Of a stretch of 64,000 bases of DNA, positions 7,057 through 62,671 are shown one piece after another. The stretch's first letter is position 1; each line of letters opens with the position of its first letter. The translations under genes and the position numbers were made by a program. The notes beneath the pieces were generated by a model that saw only the letters and a program-made list of their open reading frames with translations, made no database searches and was not told the origin of the DNA. Source of the stretch: Planctomycetota bacterium (lineage in GTDB: Bacteria > Planctomycetota > UBA1135 > GCA-002686595); the NCBI GenBank assembly GCA_026692665.1, contig JAPLOF010000028.1, positions 4,708 through 68,707 of the forward strand. The letters run 5' to 3'.

Positions 7057-7083
7057 GCCGGCACGTTCACGGCCTGGAGCAAC

Positions 7084-13136: not shown

Positions 13137-13448
13137 TCAAGCCTCGAGACGGTCGATGGCCTCGGCCAGGTCGAAGTCCAGCGTCGTCAGGCCGCCCGCG
13201 TCGTGCGTCGAGAGCTCGATCGTGACGCGCCCGTAGCCGTTCGACCAGTCGGGATGATGGTCGGCCTTCTCGGCCAGCAGTGCGACGCGCGTCATGAAGG
13301 AGAACGCGCGGCTGAAGTCGGGGAAACGGAACTCGCGGCGTACGCGGCCCTCGGTCAGCGTCCAGCGCGGGAGGCGCTGCATGCGTTCCGCGATCTCGGA
13401 CGACGTGCACGGCTTCGGTCGGACCATCCGCGCCAGGATAGCGGGCAT
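13137..13448 (-). CDS. 4a-hydroxytetrahydrobiopterin dehydratase (pterin-4-alpha-carbinolamine dehydratase)
   Basis: 103 aa from ATG 13448. PCD motifs are present ([27 protein letters not shown]). The start overlaps the stop of the upstream gene by 1 nt. Confidence 0.85.
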
Positions 13449-15715: not shown

Positions 15716-15814
15716 GAGACGCGCAGACTACGCGCGGCGGGTCGCGAATGAGAAGCGGGAGCGCGATTCGCGCTCCCGCTCGACGGAACTCGGATGGCTC
15801 CCGCGTCGGCCGGC

Positions 15815-17987: not shown

Positions 17988-19295
17988 CTACGTTCCCCAG
18001 GCGAACTCGATCCCGTTCGTGAGGTTGAATCCCGCGGGCGTGCAGAACGCGGCGTTGTTGCGGTACCAACCCTGGTAGGTCCGCGTGCCGGGCATCGTCA
18101 CCGCGCCCATCACCGAGATCGACGCGTCGCCCGGGCTCGGGTACTGGCTGGCTCCCGCACCGTTCAGCTTGGTGCCCAGGCGGCTCACGGCGCCGCCCGC
18201 GCAGCGCAGCCCGTCGCCGAAGACGGTGCCCGCTCCGCCGTTGTGCCGCAGCGTGCCCTGGAAGTAGAGGCACGCGGCGTTCGTCATGTCCGAGCCGAGC
18301 AGGACCACCGTGTCGTTCGCGAGGCTCGCGTTGCCGAACACGCGCAGCTTGCCGCCCTTCCCGAGCGAGTTCAGGCATCCCACCGCGTCACCGACGCTGG
18401 AGTTGTTGCCGCACGGACACTGTGTGTGTGTCGGCCCGCCATCTCCCGCGCAGAACGCGGTCTGCGGCAGGAACGGCTCGCACGCGGTGCCGTACAGCCG
18501 GAGCTCGAAGCCTGCGAACGGATTCCCGCCGAAGAACGCGCAGCCGTACGCCGGACCGCCCGACAGGTCGGTGATGCGGAACGAGTCGCGATTGCCCAGG
18601 CCGGTGCCCGGACCTGGATTGCCGGTGAAGTACGTGCCGGCGCCCTCGGCGCAAACCGCCGGGTTCCCGGCGATGACCGGCCCGGTCTGCGTGCCCGGAG
18701 CCGTCGACGTCATGCCCCAGGCGAACCGGTCCGCCGTCGTCCCGCCGGTGTACTGACCGTCTCCATCGGCGGTCAACACGAACGAGCCGCCGCCGGCGCC
18801 GGTGAGGTCGATCGTCACCGTCCAGCACGTGAGTGCCCCGGCCGCGCTGGAGGGCAATCCGTTCAGCGCGATCGTCGCCGTCGGGGTGATGCCGAGGACC
18901 GGGGAGCAGGCCGGATGGTCCGCGTAGAACCGGTGCGTGTAGGTCCCGAAGCTGCTCGGCGTCTGGTCCGTGCAGTACGAGAACGTGAAGCCGTCGACGC
19001 GGTAGTACGTGGAGCAACCGACGGGCGGAGGCGCCGACGGACTCGGGATGCGGCCTTCGTCCACGTACGTGAACCCCGAGAGGGCGCTGTAGTACCCCGA
19101 CGGACACGTGTTCTCGTAGAGCACGTCCGGGCCGAGCGTCGCCTGTTGCGCGCGACGGGTCCACGTGCCCGTTGCGAGGTGCAAGGTGCCCGCGTCGCGC
19201 ACGGCCGTTGCGGGGCGCGCCGTGGCCGGGGCCTGCGCCTCGGCGAGCGGGAGGTGAGACGTCAGGGCGAGCGCGGCGATCAGGGAGGTTCTCAT
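17988..19295 (-). CDS. secreted protein, unique N-terminal region plus shared Cys-rich C-terminal domain (CTD family member 1)
   Basis: ATG 19295 with signal peptide MRTSLIAALALTSHLPLAEAQA, 435 aa. The last 154 aa (17988-18452) carry CAGDG..CPCGNNS..GCLNS..LYFQG..FGDGLRCAGG..YQGWYRN..FCT..FNLTNG..W-G-T-end. Confidence 0.8.
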   Translation of the reverse strand: MRTSLIAALALTSHLPLAEAQAPATARPATAVRDAGTLHLATGTWTRRAQQATLGPDVLYENTCPSGYYSALSGFTYVDEGRIPSPSAPPPVGCSTYYRVDGFTFSYCTDQTPSSFGTYTHRFYADHPACSPVLGITPTATIALNGLPSSAAGALTCWTVTIDLTGAGGGSFVLTADGDGQYTGGTTADRFAWGMTSTAPGTQTGPVIAGNPAVCAEGAGTYFTGNPGPGTGLGNRDSFRITDLSGGPAYGCAFFGGNPFAGFELRLYGTACEPFLPQTAFCAGDGGPTHTQCPCGNNSSVGDAVGCLNSLGKGGKLRVFGNASLANDTVVLLGSDMTNAACLYFQGTLRHNGGAGTVFGDGLRCAGGAVSRLGTKLNGAGASQYPSPGDASISVMGAVTMPGTRTYQGWYRNNAAFCTPAGFNLTNGIEFAWGT

Positions 19296-19492
19296 CAGGG
19301 ATGTCCGTGGAAGATGAGTGCGGCACCAGCTCGGCTGCGAATCCCGGGTGCGTAGTCTCCGGTCGCGCGGTCGTTGCGCGGATTCTCGGAACGAAATCCG
19401 GCTGGGTTTGCAGCCTGGCGCTCGCTCCAACCGGGTAGACGGGCCGTTTGCCCGCAAGGTTCCAGGATTCGCTCCCCGTCGGGGCGAAGTCG

Positions 19493-32763: not shown

Positions 32764-35700
32764 TCACTCCGCCTTCGGGGCTTCGGCGTGCTCGCGCCCC
32801 GCGGCGAGTCCCGGTAACGCGCTCGCGTCCCAGCCTCCGCCGAGCGCGCGGACGAGCAGGACCGCGTTCACGAAGCGTCGGCCCTGGAGTTGCGCGTAGG
32901 CACGTTCGGCCGCGAGACGGGCACGGGCGCCGTCGACGACGTCGAGGAAGCTGACGAAGCCCGCGTTGAAGCGCGTGAGAGAGAGGTCGGCGACGCGTTT
33001 CGCGGCGACCGTCGCGCGTTCTTGGGCCACTGCCTGCTCGGACAGGAGCTTCGTCGCGGTCAGGGCGTCCTGCACCTCGCGGAACGCGACGAGGACCCGC
33101 TGGCGGTAGAGCTCGACGCCCTCGTCGTACGCCGCGCGCGCGCGCGCCTCGTCGGCTTCGAGACGTCCGCCCTGGAAGATCGGGATCGAGATCGAGGGTG
33201 CGAGGCTCCAGATGCGGCTGTCGATCTCGAACAGGTCGTCGATCTCGCCGCTCTGGAGGCCGGCGCTGCCCGTCAGGCGGATGCTCGGGAAGTAGGCCGC
33301 CTCGGCGACGCCGATCCGGGCGTTGCGCGCGGCGAGCTCGCGCTCGGCCTGCGCGACGTCGGGGCGTCGCTCGAGCAGCTCGCTGGGCAGGCCGGCCGGG
33401 ATCTCGGGCGGTTCCGCGGCGAGCCACGCGCCGACGTCGATGTCGAACGAGCTCGGGGGCTCGCCCGCCAGCACGGCCAGCGCATTGCGCAGGGCGGACC
33501 GTTGCCGCGAGACTTCGGACAGGTCGACCTCCGCGCTCGCGAGCTCCGTCTCGACGCGCGCGAGGTCGAGCTCGTTCGACGTTCCGGCCTCGACGCGCGA
33601 GCGGACGATGTCGAACGCGTTTCGCCGCACCTCGACCGACCGGTTCAGTACGGAGACTTCCGTCTCGAGCGCACGCAGGGAGAACCAGCTCGCGGCGACT
33701 TCGGCCTGGATCGAGAGGCGCAGCGATTCGTACGCGGCGGCCAGCGCGTCGGTCTCTCGCTCGCCAGCCTCGACGGCGCGACGCACGCGGCCCCACAGGT
33801 CGATCTCCCACGAGAGATCGATCGGCACGCGAATGTCCGAGATCGTCGCGGACGAGAAGGGGAGTCCCGCGTTGGGCGAGTACTCGGTGCGCGTCCACGT
33901 CGGGTTCGCTGTCACGCTCGGGTACAGCGCGGAGCGGACGGCCTTGGTCGAGGCGAGTGCTTGCTCGATGCGCGACAACGCGGCCTTCAGGTCGTGGTTC
34001 TCGGCGGCGACGCGCTCCTGGAGCGCGTCGAGACCCGGGTCGCCGAAGAGCTTCCACCATGCGCCGCGCGGGATCGCTTCCGGCGCCGGCTCGGAGCCGG
34101 TGGGCGCATCGCGCCAGGTGTTCGCGGAGGGGGTCTCCGGTCGGACGTAATCGGGGCCGACGGCCGCGCAGCCCGCGAGCAGGAGGATCGGCGCGAGGAG
34201 GAGCGCTGCCGCGTGTCCGCCGGCGGCCTTCAGGCCGTGGCCACCGGCTCCGTGATCGGGAGTCGGCTCGGCATCGTGCTTCGGTGCCTGCGCGCGCTTC
34301 CAGCCGATGCGCAGGAGCAGCGCGTAGAAGAGCGGCGTCAGGAACAGGCCGAAGTTCGTCACGCCGATCATCCCGGCGAACACGGCGACGCCCATGGCGC
34401 GGCGCATCTCGGAGCCCGCGCCCGTGCTGACGACGAGCGGGAAGACGCCCGCGATGAACGCGATGCTCGTCATGAGGATCGGGCGCAGGCGCAGCTTGGA
34501 CGCCTCCACCGCGGCGGAAGCCGGATCCAGGCCCTCGTCCTGCTTCACCTTGGCGAACTCGACGATCAGGATCGCGTTCTTCGCCGCCAGGCCGATCAGG
34601 ACGATCAGGCCGATCTGCGTGAACACGTTGTTGTCGCCGCCGGTGAAGTACACGCCGGCCATCGCCGAGAGCAGCGACATGGGGACGATCAGGAGGATCG
34701 CGAGCGGCATCCGGAAGCTCTCGTACTGCGCGGCCAGCACGAGGAACACGAGCAGGATGCACAGCGGGAACACGTAGATCGCCGAGTTGCCCGCCAGGAT
34801 CTTCTGGTAGGTGAGGTCGGTCCACTCGTACTTCATGCCCGGCGGGAGGTTCTCCTCGGCGAGCTTCGCCATCGCGGACTCGGCCTGGCCCGAGCTGTAT
34901 CCAGGGCCGGGCGCGCCCAGGATCTCGGCCGCGGGATAGCCGTTGTACCGGCTGGCGCGGTCGGGTCCGTACGACTCGCGGACCTCGACGAGTGTCCCGA
35001 GCGGGACCATCTGTCCGCGCTCGTTGCGCACCTTGAGGCGCGTGATGTCCGACGCCTCGTCGCGGAACTGCGCGTCGGCCTGCGCGACCACCTTGTAGGT
35101 CCGACCGAACCGGTTGAAGTCGTTGACGTAGACCGATCCGAGGTTCACCTGCATCGCGTCGAAGACGCTCTGCAGCGGGACGCCCTGCGTCTTGGCCTTC
35201 TCGCGGTCGACGTCGGCCTCGAGCTGCGGGACGTTGACCTGGAAGCTCGAGAGCCCGCCGGAGAGCTCGGGGTTCTGCGCCATCCGCCCGATGAGGCCCC
35301 AGGTCGCCGCGAAGAGCGCGTCGTGGCCGGCGTCCGCGCGATCCTCGACGAACAGCTTGAAGCCTCCCACGGTGCCCAGCCCGTTCACGGGCGGCGGGGG
35401 GAAGATCGCGACGTACGCGTCCTGGATCGCGGCGAACTTCTGGTTCAGGGCGCCCGCGATCGCGAGTCCGCCGAGCTCGGGCGTCTTCCGCTTCTCGAAC
35501 GGATCGAGCGTGACGAAGACGATCCCGGCATTCGCGCTGACCGTGAAACCGTTGATCGACAGGCCGGGAAACGCCACGCACGACTCGACGCCGGGATGGG
35601 CGAGCGCGATCTCCGACATCCGGCGGATCACGGCGTCCGAGCGGTCGAGCGAGGATGCGTCGGGAAGCTGCGCGAACGCCACGAGGTACTGCTTGTCCTG

Positions 35701-37422
35701 CGTCGGGACGAATCCCGTGGGGACGCGCTGGAAGACCCACCACGTCGCTCCGATCAGGCCGGCGTACACGACGAGCGCGACGATCGCGATGCGGATGACG
35801 CCGGCCACCGCGCGGCCGTACAGGGCCGAGCCGCGCTCGAAGATCCAGTTGAAGGGTCGGAAGATCCAGCCGAACAGGAAGTCGATCGCCTTCGTCACGA
35901 CGTCCTTCTTCGCGCCGTGCGGCTGGAGCAGGAGCGCGCTGAGCGCCGGCGAGAGCGTCAGCGAGTTGAACGCGCTGATGACCGTCGAGATCGCGATGGT
36001 GATCGCGAACTGCTTGTAGAACTGGCCGGTCAGCCCGCTGATGAACGCGGTCGGGATGAACACGGCCGACAGCACCAGCGCGGTCGCGATGATCGGCCCC
36101 GTGACCTCGGTCATGGCCTTCTTCGTGGCCTCGACCGGAGACAGGCCGTTCCGGATGTTCCGTTCGACGTTCTCGACGACGACGATCGCATCGTCGACGA
36201 CGATGCCGATCGCGAGCACGAGCCCGAAGAGGGACAGGGCGTTGATCCCGAAACCCAGCGCGTTCATGACCGCGAAGGTCCCGACCAGGGACACGGGCAC
36301 GGCCGCCAGGGGGATGAGGCTCGCCCGCCAGGTCTGGAGGAACAGGACGACGACGAGCACGACCAGCAGGATGGCCTCGATCAGCGTCACGACGACCGCG
36401 TCGATCGAGTGCTGCACGAACACCGTCGGGTCGTAGACGATGCGGTACTCGAGGCCGGCGGGGAAGTTCGACTTCAGGGCCTCCATCGCCGCGTGGACGT
36501 TGGCGGAGATCTCGATCGCGTTGCTGCCCGGCAGCTGGAAGATCGGGATGCCCACCGCCTGCTGGTTGTCGAGCAGCGAGCGCAGGGCGTAGTCGCCTGC
36601 TCCGAGCTCGATGCGCGCGACGTGCTTCAGCAGCACCTTCTCGCCGTTCGGGCCCTGCTTGACGACGATGTCGCCGAACTCCTCCTCGTCGACGAGGCGG
36701 CCTTTCGCGCTGAGCTGCAGCTCGAAGTCGACGGCGCCCGCCGTGGGTTGCTGTCCGATCGCGCCGGCGGCCACCTGCACGTTCTGCTCGCGGATCGCCG
36801 CCACGATGTCGCCGGCGGTCAGGCCGCGCGCCGCGACCTTCTCGGGGTCCAGCCACACGCGCATCGCGTAGTCGCCGCCGCCGAAGATCTCGACGGCGCC
36901 GACTCCGGGCAGGCGCGCCAGCACGTCCTTCACCTGCAGCGACGCGTAGTTGCGCAGGTAGATCTCGTCGTATCGCCCGTCGGGCGACAGGAGGTGCACG
37001 ACGAGGGTGAGGTCGGGCGACTGCTTGACCGTCGTCACGCCCAGGCGCCGCACGTCCTCGGGCAGCTTGGGCAGCGCCTGACTGACGCGGTTCTGCACCT
37101 GGACCTGGGCCTGGTCCACGTCGGTGCCGAGCTTGAAGGTGACCGTCAGCGTCATCACGCCGTCCGAGGTCGCCTGCGAGAACATGTAGATCGAGTTCTC
37201 GACCCCGTTGATCGCCTGCTCGAGCGGTGCGGCCACCGTCTCGGAGATCGTCTTCGGATTCGCGCCCGGGTAGGCGGCGCGGACGACCACGGTGGGCGGC
37301 GTGACCTCCGGATACTCGCTGATGGGCAGGCGGCCCATCGCGAGGAGGCCGAGCAGGAGGATCAGCAGGCTGAGGACGCCGGCGAAGATCGGGCGTCGGA
37401 TGAAGAAGTGCGAGAAGTTCAT
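32764..37422 (-). CDS. RND (HAE1) multidrug efflux permease fused in frame to a NodT-type outer-membrane factor lipoprotein
   Basis: One uninterrupted 1552-aa ORF. Residues 1 to ~1045 are AcrB-like (MNFSHFFIRRPIFAGVL.., 12 TM). Residues ~1064-1085 form a lipoprotein signal (LKAAGGHAAALLLAPILLLAGC, Cys codon at 34168-34170). The remainder is a NodT family OMF (CAAVGPDYVRPE...). There is no stop and no in-frame ATG/GTG/TTG at the junction. Confidence 0.8.
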   Translation of the reverse strand: MNFSHFFIRRPIFAGVLSLLILLLGLLAMGRLPISEYPEVTPPTVVVRAAYPGANPKTISETVAAPLEQAINGVENSIYMFSQATSDGVMTLTVTFKLGTDVDQAQVQVQNRVSQALPKLPEDVRRLGVTTVKQSPDLTLVVHLLSPDGRYDEIYLRNYASLQVKDVLARLPGVGAVEIFGGGDYAMRVWLDPEKVAARGLTAGDIVAAIREQNVQVAAGAIGQQPTAGAVDFELQLSAKGRLVDEEEFGDIVVKQGPNGEKVLLKHVARIELGAGDYALRSLLDNQQAVGIPIFQLPGSNAIEISANVHAAMEALKSNFPAGLEYRIVYDPTVFVQHSIDAVVVTLIEAILLVVLVVVLFLQTWRASLIPLAAVPVSLVGTFAVMNALGFGINALSLFGLVLAIGIVVDDAIVVVENVERNIRNGLSPVEATKKAMTEVTGPIIATALVLSAVFIPTAFISGLTGQFYKQFAITIAISTVISAFNSLTLSPALSALLLQPHGAKKDVVTKAIDFLFGWIFRPFNWIFERGSALYGRAVAGVIRIAIVALVVYAGLIGATWWVFQRVPTGFVPTQDKQYLVAFAQLPDASSLDRSDAVIRRMSEIALAHPGVESCVAFPGLSINGFTVSANAGIVFVTLDPFEKRKTPELGGLAIAGALNQKFAAIQDAYVAIFPPPPVNGLGTVGGFKLFVEDRADAGHDALFAATWGLIGRMAQNPELSGGLSSFQVNVPQLEADVDREKAKTQGVPLQSVFDAMQVNLGSVYVNDFNRFGRTYKVVAQADAQFRDEASDITRLKVRNERGQMVPLGTLVEVRESYGPDRASRYNGYPAAEILGAPGPGYSSGQAESAMAKLAEENLPPGMKYEWTDLTYQKILAGNSAIYVFPLCILLVFLVLAAQYESFRMPLAILLIVPMSLLSAMAGVYFTGGDNNVFTQIGLIVLIGLAAKNAILIVEFAKVKQDEGLDPASAAVEASKLRLRPILMTSIAFIAGVFPLVVSTGAGSEMRRAMGVAVFAGMIGVTNFGLFLTPLFYALLLRIGWKRAQAPKHDAEPTPDHGAGGHGLKAAGGHAAALLLAPILLLAGCAAVGPDYVRPETPSANTWRDAPTGSEPAPEAIPRGAWWKLFGDPGLDALQERVAAENHDLKAALSRIEQALASTKAVRSALYPSVTANPTWTRTEYSPNAGLPFSSATISDIRVPIDLSWEIDLWGRVRRAVEAGERETDALAAAYESLRLSIQAEVAASWFSLRALETEVSVLNRSVEVRRNAFDIVRSRVEAGTSNELDLARVETELASAEVDLSEVSRQRSALRNALAVLAGEPPSSFDIDVGAWLAAEPPEIPAGLPSELLERRPDVAQAERELAARNARIGVAEAAYFPSIRLTGSAGLQSGEIDDLFEIDSRIWSLAPSISIPIFQGGRLEADEARARAAYDEGVELYRQRVLVAFREVQDALTATKLLSEQAVAQERATVAAKRVADLSLTRFNAGFVSFLDVVDGARARLAAERAYAQLQGRRFVNAVLLVRALGGGWDASALPGLAAGREHAEAPKAE

Positions 37423-37444
37423 GAGCGTTGATCTCGAGCGCTTC

Positions 37445-38620
37445 TCAGCGGCCTTCGGGCTTCGGCTGCGCGTGTTCCGGCGTGACCGGAGTTCCGGGGC
37501 GGATGCGCTGGAGGCCGTTCACGACGATCTGTTCGCCGGCGCTCAACCCCGTGCGCACGATGCGCAACCCGTCCACGACGGGGCCCAGCGTGATCGCGCG
37601 GTACTGCGCGACGTTGTCGGCCCCCACGACGTACACGAACTTCTGCGACTGGTCCGTGCCGATCGCGCGTTGGTTCACGAGCACGGTCGGCTGCTTGGCC
37701 GTCGTGGGCATGCGCACGCGCGCGAACAGGCCCGGGAGGAGGATCCCGTCGTGGTTCGGCACCTGGACGCGCATCAGGATCGACCCGGTGCCCGTGTCGA
37801 GCCGGTTGCCCAGCGACTCGACGACGCCCGCGCGCGGGAATCCGTCCTCGTCGGCCAGCCCGACCTCGACCTGCACGCGGCCCTCCGCGTCGTGGGGGAG
37901 CTCGTTGGCCCGCATGAGCCTCTGGAGGTGCAGCAGCGAGTTCTCGTCGACGTCGACGTACACGAAGATCGGGTCGACCGACACGATCGTGGTGAGCAGC
38001 GTGTTCGCGCTGGGGATGCCGCTGACGAAGTTCCCGGGCGTCACGAGGGCGCGGCTCACGCGCCCGTCGACGGGCGCGACGATGCGCGTGTATTCGACGT
38101 CGAGCCGCGCCAGGTCGCGCGCCGCCTCGGCCGACAGGAGTGCCGCGCGCGCTTCCGCCTGCCGGGCCGTGCGGCCCTCCGCCTCCTCGATCGAGATCGC
38201 GCGGGCCTCGAGCAACTGGGCCGAGCGCGCCGCCTCGCGGTCGGCGGTGTCGAGCTTCACCCGCGCCTGGACGATCTGGGCCTCCGCCGCGGCGAGGTTG
38301 GCGCGGTAGTAGCGCGCGTCGATCGTGAAGAGCGGGTCACCGCGCTTCACGAGCTGGCCGCTCCGGAAATGCACCTCGTCGACGTGGCCGCTGACGCGCG
38401 GCCGGATCTCGACGTCGTCGACCGCCCCGAGGCGCCCGGTGAACTCGGTCGTCTCGGCGATCTCTCGTCCCTCCGCCGGGGCGATGGTGACGGCGGGCGG
38501 CGGGGCCTGCGGCGCCGAGGCCGGAGCCGCTTCCGAGCCGGACTTCCCGCGCTGGATCAGGAAGGCAGCCCCCGCGGCGACGGCGAGGACGATCAGGACG
38601 GTCAGAGTGCGGGACTTCAT
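37445..38620 (-). CDS. RND efflux periplasmic adaptor (membrane fusion protein)
   Basis: Signal anchor MKSRTLTVLIVLAVAAGAAFL, with the alpha-hairpin, lipoyl and beta-barrel pattern (IRPRVSGHVDEVHFRSGQLVKRGDPLFTID.., YTRIVAPVDGRVS). It lies 22 nt upstream of the RND gene. Confidence 0.9.
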   Translation of the reverse strand: MKSRTLTVLIVLAVAAGAAFLIQRGKSGSEAAPASAPQAPPPAVTIAPAEGREIAETTEFTGRLGAVDDVEIRPRVSGHVDEVHFRSGQLVKRGDPLFTIDARYYRANLAAAEAQIVQARVKLDTADREAARSAQLLEARAISIEEAEGRTARQAEARAALLSAEAARDLARLDVEYTRIVAPVDGRVSRALVTPGNFVSGIPSANTLLTTIVSVDPIFVYVDVDENSLLHLQRLMRANELPHDAEGRVQVEVGLADEDGFPRAGVVESLGNRLDTGTGSILMRVQVPNHDGILLPGLFARVRMPTTAKQPTVLVNQRAIGTDQSQKFVYVVGADNVAQYRAITLGPVVDGLRIVRTGLSAGEQIVVNGLQRIRPGTPVTPEHAQPKPEGR

Positions 38621-46532: not shown

Positions 46533-48197
46533 TCACGGAGTCCACGACACGCTGACGCCGTTCGTCAGGTTCGAGTGCGCTCCGCCGCAGAATCCGGACA
46601 CGTCGCGGTACGCGAGCTGGTAGTGACGCAGCGCGCCCGCCGCCGGGATCGATCCCGCGGCCGAGAGCGGCGGGTCGCCGGGCAACGGGTACGTCCATCC
46701 GCCGCTGTTGGCCGGGCGGGTGGCGATGCGCAGCAGGCTGCCGCCCACGCATTGCACGCCGGCCCCGAAGGGAGCGGCGGGGACTGTCGAGGAACCCTGG
46801 AACAGGACGGCGGTCGTCGCGAGCGGGAGGCCGCGCGCGCGCAACACGAGGCTCACCGCGGAGAGGTTCGCCGACCCGGTCGCGACGAGCTGCGTCCCAC
46901 AGTTCAACGCGCTGTTCTCGCACCCCGAGCCGGCGATCAGCAGGCTGTCGTCGTAGCACGGCGCGCATAGGTCGTTGCTCCAGGTGGCCACGCAGATCGA
47001 CGGGTAGGTGGCGGGCAGCAGCCGGAATTCCCACACGCGTCCCGTGCCCAGGGCTTGCGGCGTGCCGAGGAACACGCGATCGCCGACCAGCAGCGTCGGA
47101 CCCATGTAGCTCGACGTGGCGAGCGCGTCCGGCGCGACGATCTTCGTCTGCAGCGACCACTGCCCGGCCTCGCGTCGGAACACGTAGATGGAGCCCATGA
47201 ACGCCCCGGCCTCGTCGTCGCCCCGGCTGGAGACGATGGCCGTGTCCTGATCCAGGTGCACGTCGCTCGCGAACGACGTGCTCGGCCGGCAATCCCGCAG
47301 GGACATGTCCTCGGCCCAACCCGAGGGACCGTGCTTCCAGAAGAACGCCCCGCCCTCGTCGGTGCCGACGAAGTCCGCGCCGCTGCAGCCCGCGAGCAGC
47401 GTGTCCTGCTGCAGCGCGATGGACGACCCGAGGCCGTCGCCCGCGAGGCGCGCGGGGAGGAGCTTCACGTCCAGGAGCCAGCTCGTCCCCGCCCAGTCGT
47501 AGAGGTAGACACCGCCCGGCATGGGGAACAGGGTCGAATTCGCGCCGATCGCGAGCCGCGGTCCGTCGCTGGAGAGCGTCTGGCCGAACCACAGGTTCTG
47601 CACCGGGTCCGGCGGGACGATCGTCTGCCCGAGGACCCAACCGCCGCCGACATGGTCGAAGCGGTACACGACGCCGGCTCCCGAGTTGCCGTTCGGCGCG
47701 CTGACGAGGATGCGCTCGTCGAGGACGACGACCTGGGTTCCGAAGAGCGGATTCGTGTCCGCCACGGGGACGGGGATGGTCGCCTCCTGCGTCCAGGTCG
47801 TGCCCGTGCGGCGGAACACGTGCACGCGACCGAGCGGATTTCCGCCCGGCTGGTGGTGCGGAGACCCGACGGCCACGAGGTCACCGCGGATCGCGACGGA
47901 GGAGCCGAAGGAGTCCTGCGTGATCCCGTTGCCCGGAACGAGGCGCGCTTGTTGGCTCCACGTGCCTCCCGCGCGGACGTACACGTACGCCGCGCCGGTT
48001 CTCGCCACGACGCCGTCCGCATTGGCCGCGCCGACGATCAGCGAGTCCTGGTCGACGGCCAGGCTGCCGCCGAAGAACTCGAGCGTGGCGGCGGGATCGA
48101 AGTGGTGCAGCACTTCCGAACTCCACTGCGCGGTCGCGCGGGGGAGCGGGAGGAGCGTGGCGATCGCCAGATAGGTGATCCGAAGCGAAGCGTGCAT
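46533..48197 (-). CDS. secreted 7-blade FG-GAP-like beta-propeller protein with shared Cys-rich C-terminal domain (CTD family member 2, divergent)
   Basis: ATG 48197 preceded by GGAGG, with signal peptide MHASLRITYLAIATLLPLPRATAQ. Seven repeats of the FGxSVA..GD.LVVGA....G..G.VYVF.R.G..W type are present. The last 153 aa (46533-46994) are C..CAPC..GCENS..LFQGS..FGAGVQCVGG..YQLAYRD..FCG..SNLTNG..W-T-P-end. Confidence 0.8.
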   Translation of the reverse strand: MHASLRITYLAIATLLPLPRATAQWSSEVLHHFDPAATLEFFGGSLAVDQDSLIVGAANADGVVARTGAAYVYVRAGGTWSQQARLVPGNGITQDSFGSSVAIRGDLVAVGSPHHQPGGNPLGRVHVFRRTGTTWTQEATIPVPVADTNPLFGTQVVVLDERILVSAPNGNSGAGVVYRFDHVGGGWVLGQTIVPPDPVQNLWFGQTLSSDGPRLAIGANSTLFPMPGGVYLYDWAGTSWLLDVKLLPARLAGDGLGSSIALQQDTLLAGCSGADFVGTDEGGAFFWKHGPSGWAEDMSLRDCRPSTSFASDVHLDQDTAIVSSRGDDEAGAFMGSIYVFRREAGQWSLQTKIVAPDALATSSYMGPTLLVGDRVFLGTPQALGTGRVWEFRLLPATYPSICVATWSNDLCAPCYDDSLLIAGSGCENSALNCGTQLVATGSANLSAVSLVLRARGLPLATTAVLFQGSSTVPAAPFGAGVQCVGGSLLRIATRPANSGGWTYPLPGDPPLSAAGSIPAAGALRHYQLAYRDVSGFCGGAHSNLTNGVSVSWTP

Positions 48198-48378
48198 GGC
48201 AGGACCTCCAAACCGCGATTGTCGGCCTGCGGCCGCGATCCAGCCATGGGGCGATGTGGGTACCGCGCCGCTCCGCTCTGGACGGCGCGTGGATCGCCTG
48301 CGCCCCGAGCGGCGCACGGGATGCCGCTCGGGCCCGAGCCCGGTGGGGGCAGGCCTTTGCGAGGCCCGCTCGCATCCC

Positions 48379-51102
48379 TCAAGCCGACCAGAGCACGGAG
48401 AGCCCGTTCGTGAAGTTGAATCCCGACGGCGTGCAGAACGGCGCGCTGTTCCGATACCAGACTTGGTAGACGCGCGTTCCAGGCGTTTGGACCGCGCCTC
48501 GTACGTGGACAGCGGGATCGCCGGCGACGCCGAAGCCGTACTGGACGGCGCCGTTCGTCGCCGATCGCACCACGAGTCGCATGACCGTGCCGCTCGCGCA
48601 ACGAAGGCCGTCACCGAATACCGCCGGGTTCGACGTCGTGCCCTGGAACACGAGGCAGCTCGCGGAGCCGGGCAGAGAGTGCGCGCGCAGCAGCACCTGG
48701 TCGTAGCTCAGGCTCGGGACACCGCTCAACTCCAGGCGTGCTCCCGCGCCCGCGTACAGGGCGTCGGACTGAGAGTGCTTGCAGCCCGCTCCGGGCGCCG
48801 TGCTCGTGTTCGCGCACGGACAGGGAAGCCCGGTGCCGTCGCCGACGCAGACCGGAATGCCGCCCTCCGTCGTGCAGTCCGCGCGCAGGAGCCACGCGGC
48901 TCCGTTGACCGGAGCCGGCGGCAGGCTGTTCAGCTGGAGGTTCGCGAGCTGGATGAACCCGCCCACATTGGCTGCAAACCAGGCTACAGCGAGGGTCGGA
49001 GGCCGGCATGAGCTCGAGTCGACGGGCGCGGGCAGGCTCCCGTTGGCACTCGGCAGCGCCGCGCCCACGAAGTAGACGCCGCTCAGGACCAGCGGCTGGG
49101 GGAACGTGAACGTCGTGAAGGCGTCCGTGGCCGAGTTCAGGACGACACCCGAGACCGTCTGCACGAGCACCGCGTTGGAGGGGTCTCCATCGTCGTCGGG
49201 GTCGTCCCAGACCGCGACGACGCAGGGCGTGCCGTTGGAGGGTTGCGCGGAAGAGACGGCCGGAGAGCCGAACGCCGTCGACACGGAACGCACCGTCGTC
49301 GCCGTCCCCGGGGCTCCGTAGGCGTGCATCCACAGCACACCGCCGGCGGTCAGGTAGAGGCCGCCCGCCGTCTCGCTGGATCCGTCGTCGTAGCGACAAC
49401 CCGGCAGGGCGGACTGGAGCTCCACCGTGAACGCTCCGACCACGCCCGGAGGGTTTCCGAACCCCGTCCCGATCTGGATCGTGTACGTGACGCCGGCATC
49501 GCCCTGGAAGCACGCGCGGGACTCGGACGAGCCGGCTCCGCACTGCGCCGTTCGGCTGCAGCCGATCGCGTTGTTCGGCGCCGGGCATCCGACACCCGAG
49601 TAGATGGCGACCTTCGTGTTGCTGCCGCCGGCGAGCCCGCACGTCGAAACCTCGTAGGCTCCGGTCGAGGGCGCGGTCCAAGCGAACCACCGGTCGCGGT
49701 CGAACACGTCGAAGGGCGTGCCGCCGCAGATCGGATTCGATTGTCCCGCACAGCCCGCCGTCGCCGACGTGGTGTCGAAGGCGTGCGGTCCGGGACCGGC
49801 GATCACGAGCGGGGTCGAACAGTCGTCGTTCGTTCCGCTGCCCGAAGAGCCGATCAGGACGAAGGTGCCCGTCGGGAGTCCGGCGGCTTGCACCGCGCCG
49901 ATCTGGATCGTGTACGTCGCGCCCTGGATGGCGTCGAAGCAAACCTCGCTCTGGATGTTGCAGCCGTTGTCATCGCAACCCAGAGCCGACTGCGGGCTCG
50001 GACACCCGAAACCCTGGTACACGGCGATCTTCGTGTCGATGCTCGGCGCCGTTCCGTTGCACGTCGACAGCGACGTGCGCCCAGTTGCGCCGGCCGTCCA
50101 CACGAACCACGCGTCGCGCTGGATCGATGGGCCGGACGTCGTCTGGCACGCGGACTCGTTCTGTCCCTCCGTGCCCGTGGTGGCGAAGCTGAGGTCGAAT
50201 GGGTGCGGCCCTGGGCCGCTGACCGCGAGCGGGGTCGCGCACGAGTCGTTGACTGGAGGTGTGAAGACGTCGAGCTGGAACGTCCCCACGTACGCGGTCG
50301 AGTTCCTCTGACCGACTTGCAGCAGATACGCGGCTCCAGCCGTCACCGCGAAGGAAACGCGCGCTTGCAGGCCGCAGAAGTTGTCATTGCACGCCAAGAG
50401 CGTCGAAGTCGCGCAATCCGGCCCCGTCCTCACGGAGAAGATCGAATCGGCCGTCGTCGCGCCACAGGACTGCAGGACGGCGACACCCGTCTGGGGCGCG
50501 ACCCACGAGTACCAGACATCCGCGAGCGCCGGGTCGCATCCCGACTGGGGCAATCCGGGCGTGGCGCCGAGGGTGGTGACCGGAAACGTCCCCGTGCCCG
50601 CGATCGGAGTGGCGAGCCCGCAGCTGTCGTTCGGGGTCAACGTGTTCAGGTAGACCGAGAGTTGCCCGGTCACGTTCGAGGATCCCACGGCTCCCACCTG
50701 GATCACGTACGTCGTGCCCGCGTTCGCGGCGAAGATCACTTCGGAGCCCACGCCGCACCAGAAGTCGTTGCACGCGACGGGAGGCTGCGTCGGACAGCCG
50801 TTCGCGACATAGACGGCGAGCACCGAATCACCGCCGGCAAACGTGCACGTCTCGATCCGTCCCTCGCCGGATGCGCTCGGCGTCCAGCGGAACCAGACGT
50901 CCCGCGCGATGGTCGCGCAGGGAGGCAGCACGGATCCGAGCGACGCGTTCGTCGTGTCGACCTGGAAGAACCCTGGGCCAGGCAGGACCTGCGCGTTCAG
51001 GCAGTCGTCGCTCCCGCCGGTCCGCGCCGAGGCGAAGGATCCCAACCAGCATCCCGCTGCGACCAGAGCGGTACGCGACCAGAGAACAGAGACGTGGTGC
51101 AT
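48379..51102 (-). CDS. secreted protein with four tandem ~125-aa Cys-containing modules, a ~190-aa domain and the shared Cys-rich C-terminal domain (CTD family member 3)
   Basis: ATG 51102 preceded by GGGAGG, with signal MHHVSVLWSRTALVAAGCWLGSFASA, 907 aa. The modules start at (N)D(D/S)C..A/P.....G.G. The last 156 aa (48379-48849) are CVGDG..CPCANTS..GCKHS..VFQGT..FGDGLRCASG..YQVWYRN..FCT..FNFTNG..W-S-A-end. Confidence 0.8.
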   Translation of the reverse strand: MHHVSVLWSRTALVAAGCWLGSFASARTGGSDDCLNAQVLPGPGFFQVDTTNASLGSVLPPCATIARDVWFRWTPSASGEGRIETCTFAGGDSVLAVYVANGCPTQPPVACNDFWCGVGSEVIFAANAGTTYVIQVGAVGSSNVTGQLSVYLNTLTPNDSCGLATPIAGTGTFPVTTLGATPGLPQSGCDPALADVWYSWVAPQTGVAVLQSCGATTADSIFSVRTGPDCATSTLLACNDNFCGLQARVSFAVTAGAAYLLQVGQRNSTAYVGTFQLDVFTPPVNDSCATPLAVSGPGPHPFDLSFATTGTEGQNESACQTTSGPSIQRDAWFVWTAGATGRTSLSTCNGTAPSIDTKIAVYQGFGCPSPQSALGCDDNGCNIQSEVCFDAIQGATYTIQIGAVQAAGLPTGTFVLIGSSGSGTNDDCSTPLVIAGPGPHAFDTTSATAGCAGQSNPICGGTPFDVFDRDRWFAWTAPSTGAYEVSTCGLAGGSNTKVAIYSGVGCPAPNNAIGCSRTAQCGAGSSESRACFQGDAGVTYTIQIGTGFGNPPGVVGAFTVELQSALPGCRYDDGSSETAGGLYLTAGGVLWMHAYGAPGTATTVRSVSTAFGSPAVSSAQPSNGTPCVVAVWDDPDDDGDPSNAVLVQTVSGVVLNSATDAFTTFTFPQPLVLSGVYFVGAALPSANGSLPAPVDSSSCRPPTLAVAWFAANVGGFIQLANLQLNSLPPAPVNGAAWLLRADCTTEGGIPVCVGDGTGLPCPCANTSTAPGAGCKHSQSDALYAGAGARLELSGVPSLSYDQVLLRAHSLPGSASCLVFQGTTSNPAVFGDGLRCASGTVMRLVVRSATNGAVQYGFGVAGDPAVHVRGAVQTPGTRVYQVWYRNSAPFCTPSGFNFTNGLSVLWSA

Positions 51103-59944: not shown

Positions 59945-62671
59945 GTGCGTCCCACCCTCGCAGCCCTCGCGGTCCTCGTCCCCTCGGCAGCAGGCCAGCA
60001 GTGCGGTCAGGCGGCCGACGGATTCCACCTGCCGGGCGTGGACGGTTCTGTGTACTCCTCCGTCGTCTGGGACGACGGCACGGGGCCGGCGCTCTACGTC
60101 GGCGGCCGCTTCGGCTCGGTCGGCGGAGTCCCGGCGAGGAGCGTCGCGCGCTGGAACGGCACGACGTGGTCCGACGTCGGAGCCGACATCAGCGGGTTCC
60201 AGGGCTCGTTGGGGACGGTCCACGCGCTCGCGGCACACGCCGGCGCCCTCTACGCCGGCGGCGTGTTCTCGAGCGCCGGCGGATCCCCCGCGTCGAACAT
60301 TGCGCGCTTCGACGGCAGCACGTGGTCCGCGCTGCCCGGCGGCGGAGTGGGCGGCGATGTCTACGCGCTGGCCTCGTTCCAGGGCCAGCTGTACGTCGGC
60401 GGCTTCTTCTCCACCGCGGGCGGAGTTCCCGCGACGCGCATCGCGCGCTTCGACGGGGCGAATTGGAGCTACCCGACGGGCGGCCCCTACAACGGCCAGG
60501 TGTATGCCCTCGAGGTCTGGGACGACGGCAGCGGTCCCAGCCTCTACGTGGGCGGCGGCTTCATCTACCTGGGCGCGATCTTCGGCACGCTGGCGAACAG
60601 CATCGCGCGCTACGACGGATCGAGCTGGAGTCCGCTCGGGATCGGAATGGGCACTCCGGACGGCACGTCCACGGGCGTGGTCGGGGCCCTCGAGGTGTTC
60701 GATTCGGGCACGGGGCCGAAGCTCCACGCCGCGGGTTCCTTCGGCCAGGCCGGCGGGGGACCGGCCTCGAACGTGGCACGGTGGAGCGGGACGAGTTGGA
60801 GCCCCGTCGGAAGCGGAGTGAACGGCACGGTGACCGAACTGCGTGTCCACGACGAAGGCGCGGGGCCGCGACTGTTCGCCGCCGGGTACTTCACAGTCGC
60901 TGGCGGACACGCGGCGCGCAGCGTCGCGCGTTGGAACGGGGCGGCGTGGACGGCGCTCGGCGCCGGCACCGCGGCCCCCGCCGCGATGCTCGAGTCCTAC
61001 CAGGGCGGGCTCGTGGTCGGCGGAGAGTTCCTCGAAGTCGCCGGGCAGACGATGCGCGGGCTCGCGCAGTGGTCGAACTCGGCCTGGGGGCCCGTCGGAA
61101 CCGGCTTCGGGTTGGTGTCGCCCGTCCTCTCCTTCTGCGCGTTCGACTCGGGCGCGGGGCCGCAACTCCACGCCACGGTCGAGGGCGGGCCCATCGCTTC
61201 GAACGGGCCGCCGCGCGTCCACCGCTGGAACGGGAGCGGGTGGACGGTGCTGGGCACAGGCCCCACGTCGGGCCCCGTCGAGGCCTCGGCGGTCCACGAC
61301 GACGGATCCGGACCCGCGCTGTACGTGGCCGGCAACTTCACCGTGATCGGCGGCGTCGGCGCGGTCGGATTCGCGCGCTGGAACGGCAGCGCTTGGAGCG
61401 CGCCGGCCGCCGCGCCTACGTACCAGGTCCGGCGCTTGCGCGTGCTCGACCTCGGAACGGGGCCGGCGCTCTACGCGGCGAACACGATCCTGACGCTGGC
61501 GGACCACGGCGTGCCCACCGGCAATTACGTGTCGCGCTGGACCGGTTCGAGCTGGCAGCCGCTCGGCCCGGCCTTCAGCAACGACGTCGAGGACATCGCG
61601 GTGTTCGACGCCGGCTCGGGGCCGGCGCTCTACGCGACGGGCGACTTCCAGACGAACGGCGGGACGCAGCTCGGCTTCATCGCGCGCTGGGATCCGGTCG
61701 GATCGTCGTGGCTGCCGATCGGCGGCATGAACTCCTCCGGAGCTTCGCTCGCGGTGCACGACGACGGCAGCGGACCGCAGCTCTACGTCGGCGGCTACTT
61801 CTCGGCCGCGGGCGGCGTCCCGGCGAACCGCATCGCGCGCTGGAACGGCTTCGCCTGGTCGGCGGTCGGCGCCGGACTCGGCGCCACGAACCAGCACGTC
61901 GAGGACATGCTCGTCCACGACGACGGCAACGGGCCGCGCCTGTTCGCGACGGGCAACTTCGACCTCTCGGGGTCGCGCGGTCTCGCGGTGTGGGACGGTG
62001 CGCAGTGGAGCCTGTACCAGGGGCTCACGACGCCCGCGACCTTCCCCTCGGTGCCGCAGGCGCGGGCGGGCGTCACGCTGGCCTCGTTCGACGACGGGCT
62101 CGGCAACGGTCCGGACCTGTGGGTCGGGGGCGAGGTCACGAGCCTGGGTGCCGAGGTCGTCGCGAACGTCGGACGCATCGAGGGCTGCGGCGCGCTCGGC
62201 GCGCCGATCTGCCTCGGCGACGGGAGCGGAACGGCCTGCCCGTGCGGCAACGCGAGCCCGGTCGGCGCGAACGCGGGCTGCGTGAACTCGTTCGGTGCTG
62301 GCGGACGACTCGTCGCGCAAGGTGTCGCGAGCATCGGCGACGACACATACGTGCTCGCCGGCTCGTCGATGCCCAACTCGACGGTCCTCTACTTCTCCGG
62401 CACGACGGCGGCGAACGGCGGCGATGGCGTCGTGTTCGGTGACGGCCTGCGTTGCGCGGGCGGCGTCGTGCACCGTCTCGGGACGGTGACGAACGCGGGC
62501 GGGGCCTCGGCGTTGCCTAACCCGGCCAGCACGACGGCGCTCTCGGTGCGCGATCCCGTCGCGGCCGGCGACCAGCGCGTGTACCAGGCCTGGTACCGCA
62601 ACGCCGCGGCCTTCTGCACGAGCGACACGTTCAACCTGACGAACGCCTGGCGTGTGAACTGGTCGCTGTAG
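59945..62671 (+). CDS. secreted protein with 13-14 tandem ~50-aa propeller-type repeats and the shared Cys-rich C-terminal domain (CTD family member 4)
   Basis: GTG 59945 gives the signal peptide (M)RPTLAALAVLVPSAAGQQ; the track start is GTG 59885. The repeat unit is V.AL.V.DDGSGP.LYVGG.F..AGGV.A..IARW(N/D)G..WS.LG.G. The last 153 aa (62210-62671) are CLGDG..CPCGNAS..GCVNS..LYFSG..FGDGLRCAGG..YQAWYRN..FCT..FNLTNA..W-S-L-end. Confidence 0.8.
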   Translation: MRPTLAALAVLVPSAAGQQCGQAADGFHLPGVDGSVYSSVVWDDGTGPALYVGGRFGSVGGVPARSVARWNGTTWSDVGADISGFQGSLGTVHALAAHAGALYAGGVFSSAGGSPASNIARFDGSTWSALPGGGVGGDVYALASFQGQLYVGGFFSTAGGVPATRIARFDGANWSYPTGGPYNGQVYALEVWDDGSGPSLYVGGGFIYLGAIFGTLANSIARYDGSSWSPLGIGMGTPDGTSTGVVGALEVFDSGTGPKLHAAGSFGQAGGGPASNVARWSGTSWSPVGSGVNGTVTELRVHDEGAGPRLFAAGYFTVAGGHAARSVARWNGAAWTALGAGTAAPAAMLESYQGGLVVGGEFLEVAGQTMRGLAQWSNSAWGPVGTGFGLVSPVLSFCAFDSGAGPQLHATVEGGPIASNGPPRVHRWNGSGWTVLGTGPTSGPVEASAVHDDGSGPALYVAGNFTVIGGVGAVGFARWNGSAWSAPAAAPTYQVRRLRVLDLGTGPALYAANTILTLADHGVPTGNYVSRWTGSSWQPLGPAFSNDVEDIAVFDAGSGPALYATGDFQTNGGTQLGFIARWDPVGSSWLPIGGMNSSGASLAVHDDGSGPQLYVGGYFSAAGGVPANRIARWNGFAWSAVGAGLGATNQHVEDMLVHDDGNGPRLFATGNFDLSGSRGLAVWDGAQWSLYQGLTTPATFPSVPQARAGVTLASFDDGLGNGPDLWVGGEVTSLGAEVVANVGRIEGCGALGAPICLGDGSGTACPCGNASPVGANAGCVNSFGAGGRLVAQGVASIGDDTYVLAGSSMPNSTVLYFSGTTAANGGDGVVFGDGLRCAGGVVHRLGTVTNAGGASALPNPASTTALSVRDPVAAGDQRVYQAWYRNAAAFCTSDTFNLTNAWRVNWSL

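What the first reader, a model, noticed from the sequence alone, without database searches (positions are those of the whole stretch)
46533..51102. Four secreted proteins share a ~155-aa Cys-rich C-terminal domain I cannot assign to a named family (a tandem pair lies here)
The last 153-156 residues of four products align without large gaps: 46533-48197(-), 48379-51102(-), 17988-19295(-) and 59945-62671(+). The shared pattern is:
- C-x-GDG-x(3-6)-CPC-x-N
- GC-x-[NH]-S
- L-[YV]-F-[QS]-G
- FG-[DA]-G-[LV]-[RQ]-C-[AV]-[GS]-G
- R-[LI]
- PGTR-x-YQ-x-WYR-[ND] (YQLAYRD in the divergent copy)
- FC-[TG]
- [FS]-N-[LF]-T-N-[GA]
- W-x-x-end

Everything N-terminal of this domain differs between the four: a 7-blade FG-GAP-like propeller, four tandem ~125-aa Cys modules, 13-14 copies of a ~50-aa propeller repeat, and a unique ~260-aa region. 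All four have N-terminal signal peptides.

A constant C-terminal module on variable secreted passengers is the architecture of sorting or anchoring signals such as the T9SS CTD and the PEP-CTERM or MYXO-CTERM classes. This one is far longer than the tripartite -CTERM signals, has no terminal TM helix, and carries about 7 conserved cysteines. Four copies in 64 kb implies a large paralogous family in this genome.

I see no candidate dedicated sorting enzyme in this window. The function could be surface attachment, a secretion signal, or a ligand-binding lectin-like module.
Basis: partly seen in the sequence, partly recalled or inferred. Interest (0 to 1): 0.8.

Follow-up and report, generated by a model that had tools for sequence, protein, structure and literature searches.

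The report
Uncatalogued C-terminal tag on planctomycete secreted proteins
Four otherwise unrelated secreted proteins in this window end in the same ~155-residue cysteine-bonded beta-sandwich domain, which turns out to be a very large, always-terminal domain family missing from the Pfam and NCBIfam copies searched, found so far only in one group of uncultured Planctomycetota, and most likely a shared export or surface-attachment tag.

Summary
Exactly four ORFs in the window end in a homologous ~155-aa domain (HMM E 1e-72 to 1e-75; most divergent pair BLASTP E 1e-20).

It is not a private quirk of these four. A profile search finds 9,672 clusters (50% identity) among 1.84 billion representative proteins. 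At least 514 copies occur in representative genomes; the 79 loci fetched all come from 15 high-GC 'Planctomycetota' MAGs, with at least 30 copies in one MAG.

In every case checked (120 + 150 + 129 copies) the domain ends 0-4 residues before the stop codon, once per protein. The one exception looks like a frameshift. The N-terminal parts are extremely varied: propellers, lectins, cupredoxins, proteases, esterases. About 72% of M-starting representative-search proteins over 300 aa show a signal-peptide-like N-terminus.

Pfam-A, NCBIfam and PDB sequence searches give nothing. AlphaFold2 gives a confident beta-sandwich (pLDDT 94.7) with no significant Foldseek match in PDB or BFVD.

The core is ~125 aa, and a short form lacks the N-terminal cysteine-rich segment.

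Best reading (about 0.45): a lineage-specific cargo tag that works like the T9SS C-terminal domain without being a member of that family. No partner machinery was found, so function remains inferred.

The parts
17988..18467 (-). C-terminal domain (long form) of protein p3, ending at the stop codon
   Evidence: HMM match to residues 424-582 of the stop-to-stop frame, E 1.8e-74; alignment A1; AlphaFold2 model of this copy, pLDDT 94.7
17988..19295 (-). p3: 435-aa secreted protein with a unique ~260-aa N-terminal region plus the CTD
   Evidence: ORF; no Pfam or NCBIfam hit on the N-terminal part; signal-peptide-like N-terminus MRTSLIAALALTSHLPLAEAQA
46533..47009 (-). C-terminal domain of p1, the divergent copy (lacks GDG; YQLAYRD)
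   Evidence: HMM E 4.3e-72; BLASTP against the p3 CTD E 1e-20, 35% identity
46533..48197 (-). p1: 554-aa FG-GAP_2 propeller protein plus the CTD
   Evidence: Pfam PF14312, E 4.7e-41, 5 stretches; identical to database protein P0122 and found on a Logan contig from SRR20698650; signal-peptide-like N-terminus
48379..48864 (-). C-terminal domain of p2
   Evidence: HMM E 1.9e-72
48379..51102 (-). p2: 907-aa protein with tandem Cys-containing GBD_T9SS_assoc-like modules, a spacer and the CTD
   Evidence: Pfam PF23759, E 5.6e-18, two matched stretches; four modules visible by eye in the translation, three further module starts marked by an [ND]D[SDC]C motif scan; public gene call of 907 aa
62195..62671 (+). 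C-terminal domain of p4
   Evidence: HMM E 1.9e-71; P0123 match at residues 751-907 of 908
59945..62671 (+). p4: 908-aa DUF5122/Rax2-type beta-propeller repeat protein plus the CTD
   Evidence: Pfam PF17164 and PF12768; full-length relatives at 35-40% identity in L069, L047 and L050

Best explanation
The domain is a lineage-specific C-terminal cargo tag for the secretome of one group of Planctomycetota.

Proposed route (inferred):
1. Each protein crosses the inner membrane through Sec, using its N-terminal signal peptide.
2. The C-terminal domain folds in the periplasm into an Ig/FnIII-like beta-sandwich, presumably locked by disulfides. Inference gives three: C28-C86 in the core, plus two that tie the N-terminal C-x8-CPC segment to C139.
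3. This folded tag, with its free C-terminus, is recognised by a shared outer-membrane export or attachment machinery that has not been identified.
4. The machinery delivers the variable passenger to the cell surface or the medium. The tag then either stays as the tether or is removed.

In function it would work like the T9SS C-terminal domain of Bacteroidota. It is not a member of that family.

Shown: homology, family size, strict terminal position, one copy per protein, passenger diversity, signal-peptide-like N-termini, predicted fold, and absence from Pfam, NCBIfam and PDB. Inferred: the disulfide pairing, recognition by a machinery, and surface delivery.
For: - Position: the domain ends 0-2 residues before the protein end in 120/120 word-index hits and 149/150 representative hits. 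The exception, P0161, has an Arg-rich tail that looks like a frameshift. In genomic DNA it ends 0-4 residues before the stop in 129/129 copies, and never twice in one ORF. The short form follows the same rule, with tails of 0-2.
- Abundance: 9,672 clusters at E<=1e-3; at least 514 genomic copies; 129 copies in 779 kb from 15 MAGs, at least 30 in one MAG and up to 6 genes in 12 kb.
- Passengers are those of a secretome, not of one pathway: PD40, FG-GAP/VCBS, C-type lectin, CHRD, RCC1, TSP3, Kelch, cupredoxin, M12B/S8/S9/C13 peptidases, esterases. PF23759, named by Pfam as T9SS-associated, is here joined to this domain instead.
- Sec export: 79/109 M-starting representative-search CTD proteins over 300 aa have a signal-peptide-like N-terminus, against 1/112 cytoplasmic CarA controls.
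- The tag is much better conserved than the passengers: 55-68% identity among top hits, six invariant Cys and invariant surface-type motifs FGDGxRC, YQxWYRN, FNLTNG. This fits one common partner.
- Fold: a confident beta-sandwich (pLDDT 94.7, pTM 0.90; short form 88.6). T9SS CTDs are also Ig-like beta-sandwiches required at the C-terminus (PMC4804311, PMC11285876).
- The genes are scattered among housekeeping genes, as T9SS cargo genes are.
Against: - No candidate translocon, sortase-like protease or other recurrent partner gene was found in the window or in 779 kb of related loci. Whole-genome co-occurrence could not be computed.
- The domain is about twice the size of a T9SS CTD and has no sequence or significant structural similarity to it.
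- T9SS is described as confined to Bacteroidota and relatives (PMC5445135), so a new machinery has to be postulated.
- No 'choice-of-anchor' family was found among 77 passengers.
- Conserved exposed aromatic and polar residues would fit a ligand-binding module equally well.
- There are no proteomic or localisation data.
Confidence: 0.45

Rival explanations
1. The domain is a lectin- or CBM-like binding module. It does not direct export. It binds a common glycan or surface polymer (the cell's own envelope, or a substrate or prey surface), and so concentrates many different enzymes and binders on the same target.
For: - It is a beta-sandwich with strongly conserved aromatic and polar residues: YQxWYRN, FQG, FNLTNG.
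- The weak Foldseek neighbours include LPMOs, a chitin-binding domain, a putative carbohydrate-binding protein and adhesin repeats.
- Passengers include hydrolases and esterases, which are often fused to CBMs.
- No sorting machinery was found.
Against: - CBMs and lectin modules occur at N-terminal, internal and tandem positions. Here about 400 copies are all single and end 0-4 residues before the stop.
- Cupredoxins, propellers and lectins as passengers make little sense as CBM-targeted enzymes.
- No Foldseek hit reaches E 1e-3 or TM 0.5.
Confidence: 0.3
2. The domain is a dockerin-like assembly module. It binds a cohesin-like receptor on a scaffold or surface-layer protein and assembles many secreted proteins into a surface complex.
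For: - One copy per protein, mostly C-terminal, with dozens per genome on diverse passengers: the same pattern as dockerins.
- The high conservation of the tag suggests a single protein partner.
Against: - No recurrent candidate scaffold gene lies near the CTD genes.
- There is no similarity to dockerin (Pfam).
- It is a beta-sandwich with invariant Cys pairs, not a Ca-binding EF-hand-like fold.
- Dockerins tolerate other positions and trailing sequence, which is not seen here.
Confidence: 0.1
3. The domain is a C-terminal folding or stabilising pro-domain, like the pre-peptidase C-terminal domains. It has no targeting role and may be removed after secretion.
For: It is C-terminal on some proteases (M12B, S8, S9, C13), and it is a compact domain with three invariant Cys pairs.
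Against: - Most passengers are not proteases, and they have unrelated folds. A single chaperone domain for all of them is implausible.
- PPC-type domains occur in tandem or internally, and they did not match.
Confidence: 0.05

Closest known systems
T9SS C-terminal sorting domain (Por_Secre_tail PF18962 / TIGR04183, type A; TIGR04131, type B) of Bacteroidota
   Same: - A folded beta-sandwich at the extreme C-terminus of Sec-dependent proteins.
- One copy per protein, tens of cargo genes per genome, scattered around the chromosome.
- Very diverse passengers: proteases, propellers, lectins, cupredoxins.
- The PF23759 passenger module is shared (PMC4804311, PMC11285876).
   Different: - No sequence match to any Pfam-A or NCBIfam model, even at E<=10.
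- No T9SS CTD structure among the top 50 Foldseek hits.
- 125-155 aa against about 70-100 aa.
- Two to six invariant cysteines.
- Found in Planctomycetota, where no T9SS is known.
- No PorU, PorV or SprA-like partner identified.
Short tripartite C-terminal sorting signals (PEP-CTERM/exosortase, MYXO-CTERM, GlyGly-CTERM/rhombosortase, LPXTG/sortase)
   Same: A constant C-terminal element on a large, variable, lineage-specific set of secreted proteins.
   Different: - Those signals are about 25-35 aa: a motif, a transmembrane helix and a basic tail.
- Here there is a 155-aa globular domain with no terminal transmembrane helix, ending W-x-P.
- No exosortase or sortase gene was seen nearby.
Dockerin, CBM, SLH-type targeting modules
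   Same: Modular domains that give many secreted proteins a common address.
   Different: No homology. The strict single C-terminal position is not typical of those modules.
Generic Ig/FnIII/macroglobulin-type beta-sandwiches (e.g. 6xi3 adhesin repeat, LPMO AA9/AA10, C3 MG domains)
   Same: Overall all-beta sandwich topology. These are the best Foldseek neighbours.
   Different: TM-scores are only 0.3-0.48, E>=0.005 and sequence identity below 16%. This is fold-class resemblance only.

Membership tests
T9SS C-terminal sorting domain (PF18962 / TIGR04183 / TIGR04131) | Sequence match to the family HMMs | tested here: not met
   hmmscan of the four CTDs against Pfam-A and NCBIfam at E<=10 returned no T9SS model. 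Full proteins also gave none.
T9SS C-terminal sorting domain (PF18962 / TIGR04183 / TIGR04131) | Compact 7-stranded (3+4) Ig-like beta-sandwich of about 70-100 aa | tested here: inconclusive
   The AF2 models are beta-sandwiches but larger: about 10 strands in 155 aa for the long form, 9 strands in about 125 aa for the short form. No T9SS CTD chain appears in the top 50 Foldseek PDB hits.
T9SS C-terminal sorting domain (PF18962 / TIGR04183 / TIGR04131) | Located at the extreme C-terminus of proteins that have N-terminal Sec signal peptides | tested here: met
   Tails of 0-4 residues in about 400 copies. Signal-peptide-like N-termini in 72% of M-starting representative-search CTD proteins over 300 aa, against 1% of controls.
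T9SS C-terminal sorting domain (PF18962 / TIGR04183 / TIGR04131) | Co-occurrence with T9SS machinery (SprA/Sov, PorV, PorU, GldKLMN) in the same genome | not testable with these tools
   Only 64 kb plus 779 kb of flanking DNA could be read, and nothing of the kind recurred.
PEP-CTERM / MYXO-CTERM / GlyGly-CTERM tripartite signals | Short motif, then a hydrophobic transmembrane helix, then a basic cluster at the very end | tested here: not met
   The proteins end in a beta-strand...FNLTNG-x-x-V-x-W-x-P, with no terminal hydrophobic helix or Arg/Lys cluster. No NCBIfam CTERM model matched.
Carbohydrate-binding module / lectin families in Pfam and PDB | Sequence or structural match to a defined CBM or lectin family | tested here: not met
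   No Pfam hit and no PDB sequence hit. Foldseek's best hit is E 0.0056, with TM<0.5.
Carbohydrate-binding module / lectin families in Pfam and PDB | Demonstrated glycan binding | not testable with these tools
   This needs experiment (glycan array or pull-down).
Dockerin | Duplicated Ca-binding EF-hand-like segment of about 70 aa (PF00404) | tested here: not met
   No Pfam hit. The predicted fold is all-beta with almost no helix.

The most novel reading that the evidence does not exclude
The domain is the cargo signal of a hitherto unknown outer-membrane protein export and surface-attachment pathway in an early-branching, high-GC lineage of Planctomycetota. That lineage is possibly the Saltatorellus-related clade, whose genomes have about 70% GC (PMC11032199). 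This would be an independent invention of the 'folded C-terminal tag' principle known from the T9SS, using a different fold variant, presumed disulfide locks, perhaps glycosylation of the conserved N-L-T sequon, and new machinery.
Probability: 0.3. Interest if true: 0.85.

Novelty: new variant of a known kind. Interest (0 to 1): 0.62.

Why it matters
Planctomycetota have an unusual cell envelope and a large secretome, but how their proteins cross the outer membrane and stay on the surface is poorly understood.

A single tag that marks dozens of secreted proteins per genome, and nearly ten thousand protein clusters in public data, gives three things:
- a ready-made definition of that secretome;
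- a handle for finding the machinery that reads the tag, by phylogenetic profiling, pull-downs or reporter fusions;
- a large domain family currently missing from the Pfam and NCBIfam copies searched, so all of these proteins are annotated only by their passenger or as 'hypothetical'.

If the tag proves to be an export signal, it would be a second, independent example of the T9SS-type logic outside the Bacteroidota. If it proves to be a binding module, it defines a new family with a near-absolute positional constraint, which itself needs explaining.

Tried and rejected
- Known-family assignment. All of these were negative:
  - Pfam-A and NCBIfam on full proteins and on the CTD alone at E<=10. 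The only marginal hit, TIGR04294 H-X9-DG (E 0.069), rests on a His that is not conserved in the family and is taken as chance.
  - A PDB sequence profile.
  - Foldseek against PDB and BFVD for the long form and against PDB for the short form.
- Dedicated neighbour genes. All-against-all clustering of 526 GC3-filtered ORFs from the window and 79 loci, with Pfam on the recurrent families. Only these turned up:
  - Ser/Thr kinase-TPR proteins, M1 peptidase, sulfatase and nitroreductase;
  - syntenic orthologues;
  - a 9-member 'family' that lies antisense to the CTD coding region and is judged an artefact of high GC.
- 'Choice-of-anchor' test. NCBIfam on 77 CTD proteins found no choice-of-anchor family.
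- An eighth, upstream cysteine as part of the domain: present in only about 29% of copies, so rejected.
- Operon context of the conserved cupredoxin-CTD orthologue: uninformative. A second look-up was not on record.
- Source organism. Exact look-ups of p3 and CarA failed. p1 is on a 14-kb Logan contig from SRR20698650. CarA relatives are all unnamed 'Planctomycetota bacterium' MAGs. Membership of the Saltatorellus clade is suggested only by about 70% GC (PMC11032199) and is not shown.
- Literature searches for a prior description found none in the library searched.
- Disulfide geometry could not be checked because model coordinates are not exposed.
Full report
**1. Observation**

Their last ~157 residues align with few gaps: 33-53% identity to the first copy and 32 invariant columns.

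An HMM built from the four finds exactly these four in a six-frame translation of the 64-kb window (E 1e-72 to 1e-75) and nothing else. The most divergent pair, p1 against p3, scores E 1e-20 by BLASTP. This is homology, not chance.

The window has 71% G+C. Many long spurious ORFs therefore overlap the real genes; real genes were picked by GC3.

The N-terminal parts are unrelated to each other:
- p1: FG-GAP_2.
- p2: GBD_T9SS_assoc modules. Pfam matches two stretches; four are visible by eye in the translation, and a motif scan marked three further module starts.
- p4: DUF5122/Rax2-type propeller repeats.
- p3: no hit.

All four begin with a short basic region followed by a hydrophobic stretch.

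**2. Family size and distribution**

A word-indexed profile search returned 695 hits among the 8,000 candidates scored. An exhaustive HMMER search of 1.84 billion representative proteins gave:

| E-value threshold | Clusters (50% identity) |
|---|---|
| <=1e-3 | 9,672 |
| <=1e-10 | 6,255 |
| <=1e-30 | 1,761 |

 Two of the top three hits are exactly p1 and p4. The third is p2 with a shorter called start.

The best 79 loci all come from 15 MAGs labelled Planctomycetota, Planctomycetia or Planctomycetaceae, with 66-72% G+C among the twelve loci printed. Going by the isolate names, they come from lake, river, glacier-stream and bioreactor samples, among others.

In the 779 kb fetched there are 129 copies. 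At least 30 come from one MAG, and up to six genes lie in 12 kb.

The window's CarA has its nearest relatives (72-94% identity) only in unnamed Planctomycetota MAGs. p1 occurs on a Logan contig from SRR20698650. The ~70% G+C recalls the Saltatorellus clade (PMC11032199), but membership of that clade was not shown.

**3. Position and architecture**

The domain ends close to the protein end in every set examined:

| Set | Copies | Tail after domain |
|---|---|---|
| Word-index hits | 120/120 | 0-2 residues |
| Representative hits | 149/150 | 0-2 residues |
| Genomic copies | 129/129 | 0-4 residues before the stop |

The single exception, P0161, continues into an Arg-rich tail that looks like a frameshift. 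There is never more than one copy per ORF.

There is no long linker. The passenger runs into a G-T-P-F-C junction. An extra upstream Cys occurs in only 29% of copies.

Pfam hits on the passengers of 77 genomic copies include PD40, FG-GAP/VCBS, C-type lectin, CHRD, RCC1, TSP3, Kelch, DUF5122, GBD_T9SS_assoc, cupredoxin, M12B/S8/S9/C13 peptidases and several esterases. NCBIfam adds partial matches to:
- the TSP3 region of the MYXO-CTERM protein MtsC;
- the Mep72 metzincin;
- an extracellular PHA depolymerase.

Of the M-starting representative-search proteins over 300 aa, 72% have a signal-peptide-like N-terminus, against 1% of CarA controls. Several of the rest are visibly mis-called starts. An example is P0121, which is p2 called from an internal Met.

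**4. Anatomy of the domain**

Across 377 distinct copies, six cysteines are 98-100% conserved (HMM columns 5, 14, 16, 28, 86, 139). A seventh is present in 13%.

Other near-invariant elements:
- G7-D-G9
- C14-P-C16-x-N18
- G27-C28-x-x-S31
- F66-Q-G68
- F80-G-D-G-x-R-C86
- R93-L94
- Y128-Q-x-W-Y-R-N134
- F144-N-L-T-N-G149
- W154

The N145-x-[ST] sequon is 99% conserved.

A closed 6.57-Mb relative (ENA ERZ25072999; CarA 74% identical) carries a short form on a LamG protein (L081:17857-18918). This form lacks the first ~30 residues and C139, but keeps the equivalents of C28 and C86. Thirty-three relatives of this short form were found, all again strictly C-terminal.

A profile-profile comparison of long against short gives 99.6% probability and E 1.4e-24 over 122 columns. 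So the core is ~125 aa with one presumed disulfide. The long form adds a C-x8-CPC segment, presumably pinned to C139.

**5. Fold**

| Form | pLDDT | pTM | Secondary structure |
|---|---|---|---|
| Long | 94.7 | 0.90 | All-beta, about ten strands, coil over the first ~35 residues |
| Short | 88.6 | 0.84 | All-beta |

Foldseek finds no hit at E<=1e-3 in PDB or BFVD. The best neighbours have TM 0.3-0.48 and under 16% identity. They are generic Ig/FnIII/MG-type sandwiches: adhesin repeats, LPMOs, the FnIII domain of pectate lyase, and C3 MG domains. A PDB sequence profile search is empty. Pfam-A and NCBIfam give nothing, even at E<=10.

**6. Context**

The four genes sit among housekeeping genes: ligA, DAHP synthase, guanylate kinase, coaBC, priA, carA, an RND pump and others.

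Clustering of 526 ORFs from the window and loci shows no recurrent neighbour that could be a sorting enzyme.

PMT_2-type GT-C glycosyltransferases flank p3. Distant paralogues lie near CTD genes in four other loci. That is too few to call enrichment.

**7. Interpretation**

The near-absolute terminal position, single copy, large paralogue number, secretome-like passengers, Sec signals and a tag far better conserved than its passengers make up the signature of a cargo tag read by a common partner.

The closest functional analogue is the T9SS C-terminal domain. It is also a folded Ig-like sandwich needed at the very C-terminus (PMC4804311, PMC11285876). The system that reads it is described as confined to the Bacteroidetes (PMC5445135).

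Membership of that family fails on sequence and is not supported by structure. The claim is therefore 'works like', not 'is'.

I put 0.45 on a sorting or attachment tag. The rivals are:
- 0.30 on a lectin/CBM-like binding module, which fits the conserved aromatics and the weak LPMO/CBM neighbours but not the positional rule;
- 0.10 on a dockerin-like assembly module;
- 0.05 on a folding pro-domain.

No machinery was found.

**8. Novelty**

No description was found in the library searched, and no model exists in Pfam-A 2025 or NCBIfam 2026.

It is a new domain family.

Noticed in passing
window 32764-37422 (-): One uninterrupted 1552-aa ORF carries a full AcrB-type RND transporter (Pfam ACR_tran, residues 35-1068, numbered on the 1,584-aa stop-to-stop frame 32764-37518) followed by a TolC-like outer membrane efflux protein domain (OEP, residues 1163-1352). 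This looks like an inner-membrane pump fused to its outer-membrane factor, which is unusual. The HlyD-type adaptor gene lies next to it at 37445-38620 (-).
   Followed up: partly
window 13448-15727 (-) and 19439-21304 (+): Two PMT_2 (GT-C, ArnT/PMT-like) membrane glycosyltransferase genes lie either side of the CTD gene p3 (an ETF-like pair sits between the first and p3). The first is fused to TPR repeats. Distant paralogues (27-34% identity) lie within about 6 kb of CTD genes in L048, L016, L031 and L010. With the 99%-conserved N-L-T sequon in the CTD, this hints at glycosylation. The numbers are too small to show enrichment.
   Followed up: partly
L081:17857-18918 (+) and proteins P0377-P0409: There is a short (~125 aa, two-cysteine) form of the same C-terminal domain on a LamG protein in a closed 6.57-Mb ENA metagenome genome, and on 33 relatives. 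It is also strictly C-terminal. hhalign against the long form gives 99.6% probability.
   Followed up: yes
window 17988-18470 (-), residues 75-87 of the p3 CTD: The p3 copy happens to read H-x9-DG (HNGGAGTVFGDG) and gives a marginal hit to TIGR04294, the planctomycete H-X9-DG-CTERM motif (E 0.069). The His is not conserved in the family, so this is taken as coincidence.
   Followed up: yes
loci L021, L001 and nine others (example: L021:1-3417): Large Ser/Thr protein kinase-TPR proteins recur in 11 of the 79 loci. This fits the reported kinase expansions in early-branching Planctomycetota (PMC11032199). It probably reflects family abundance rather than linkage to the CTD genes.
   Followed up: no
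window 18268-18756 (+), 49658-50653 (+); loci such as L020:5736-6377 (-): Long antisense ORFs with high GC3 overlap the CTD-coding regions, and they even cluster as a 9-member 'family' across loci. They appear to be artefacts of 71% G+C and conserved sense-strand sequence, not genes.
   Followed up: partly
window 7057-8340 (+): A DUF1501 protein is present, a family I recall as typical of Planctomycetota and Verrucomicrobiota. This agrees with the taxonomic placement of the window.
   Followed up: no
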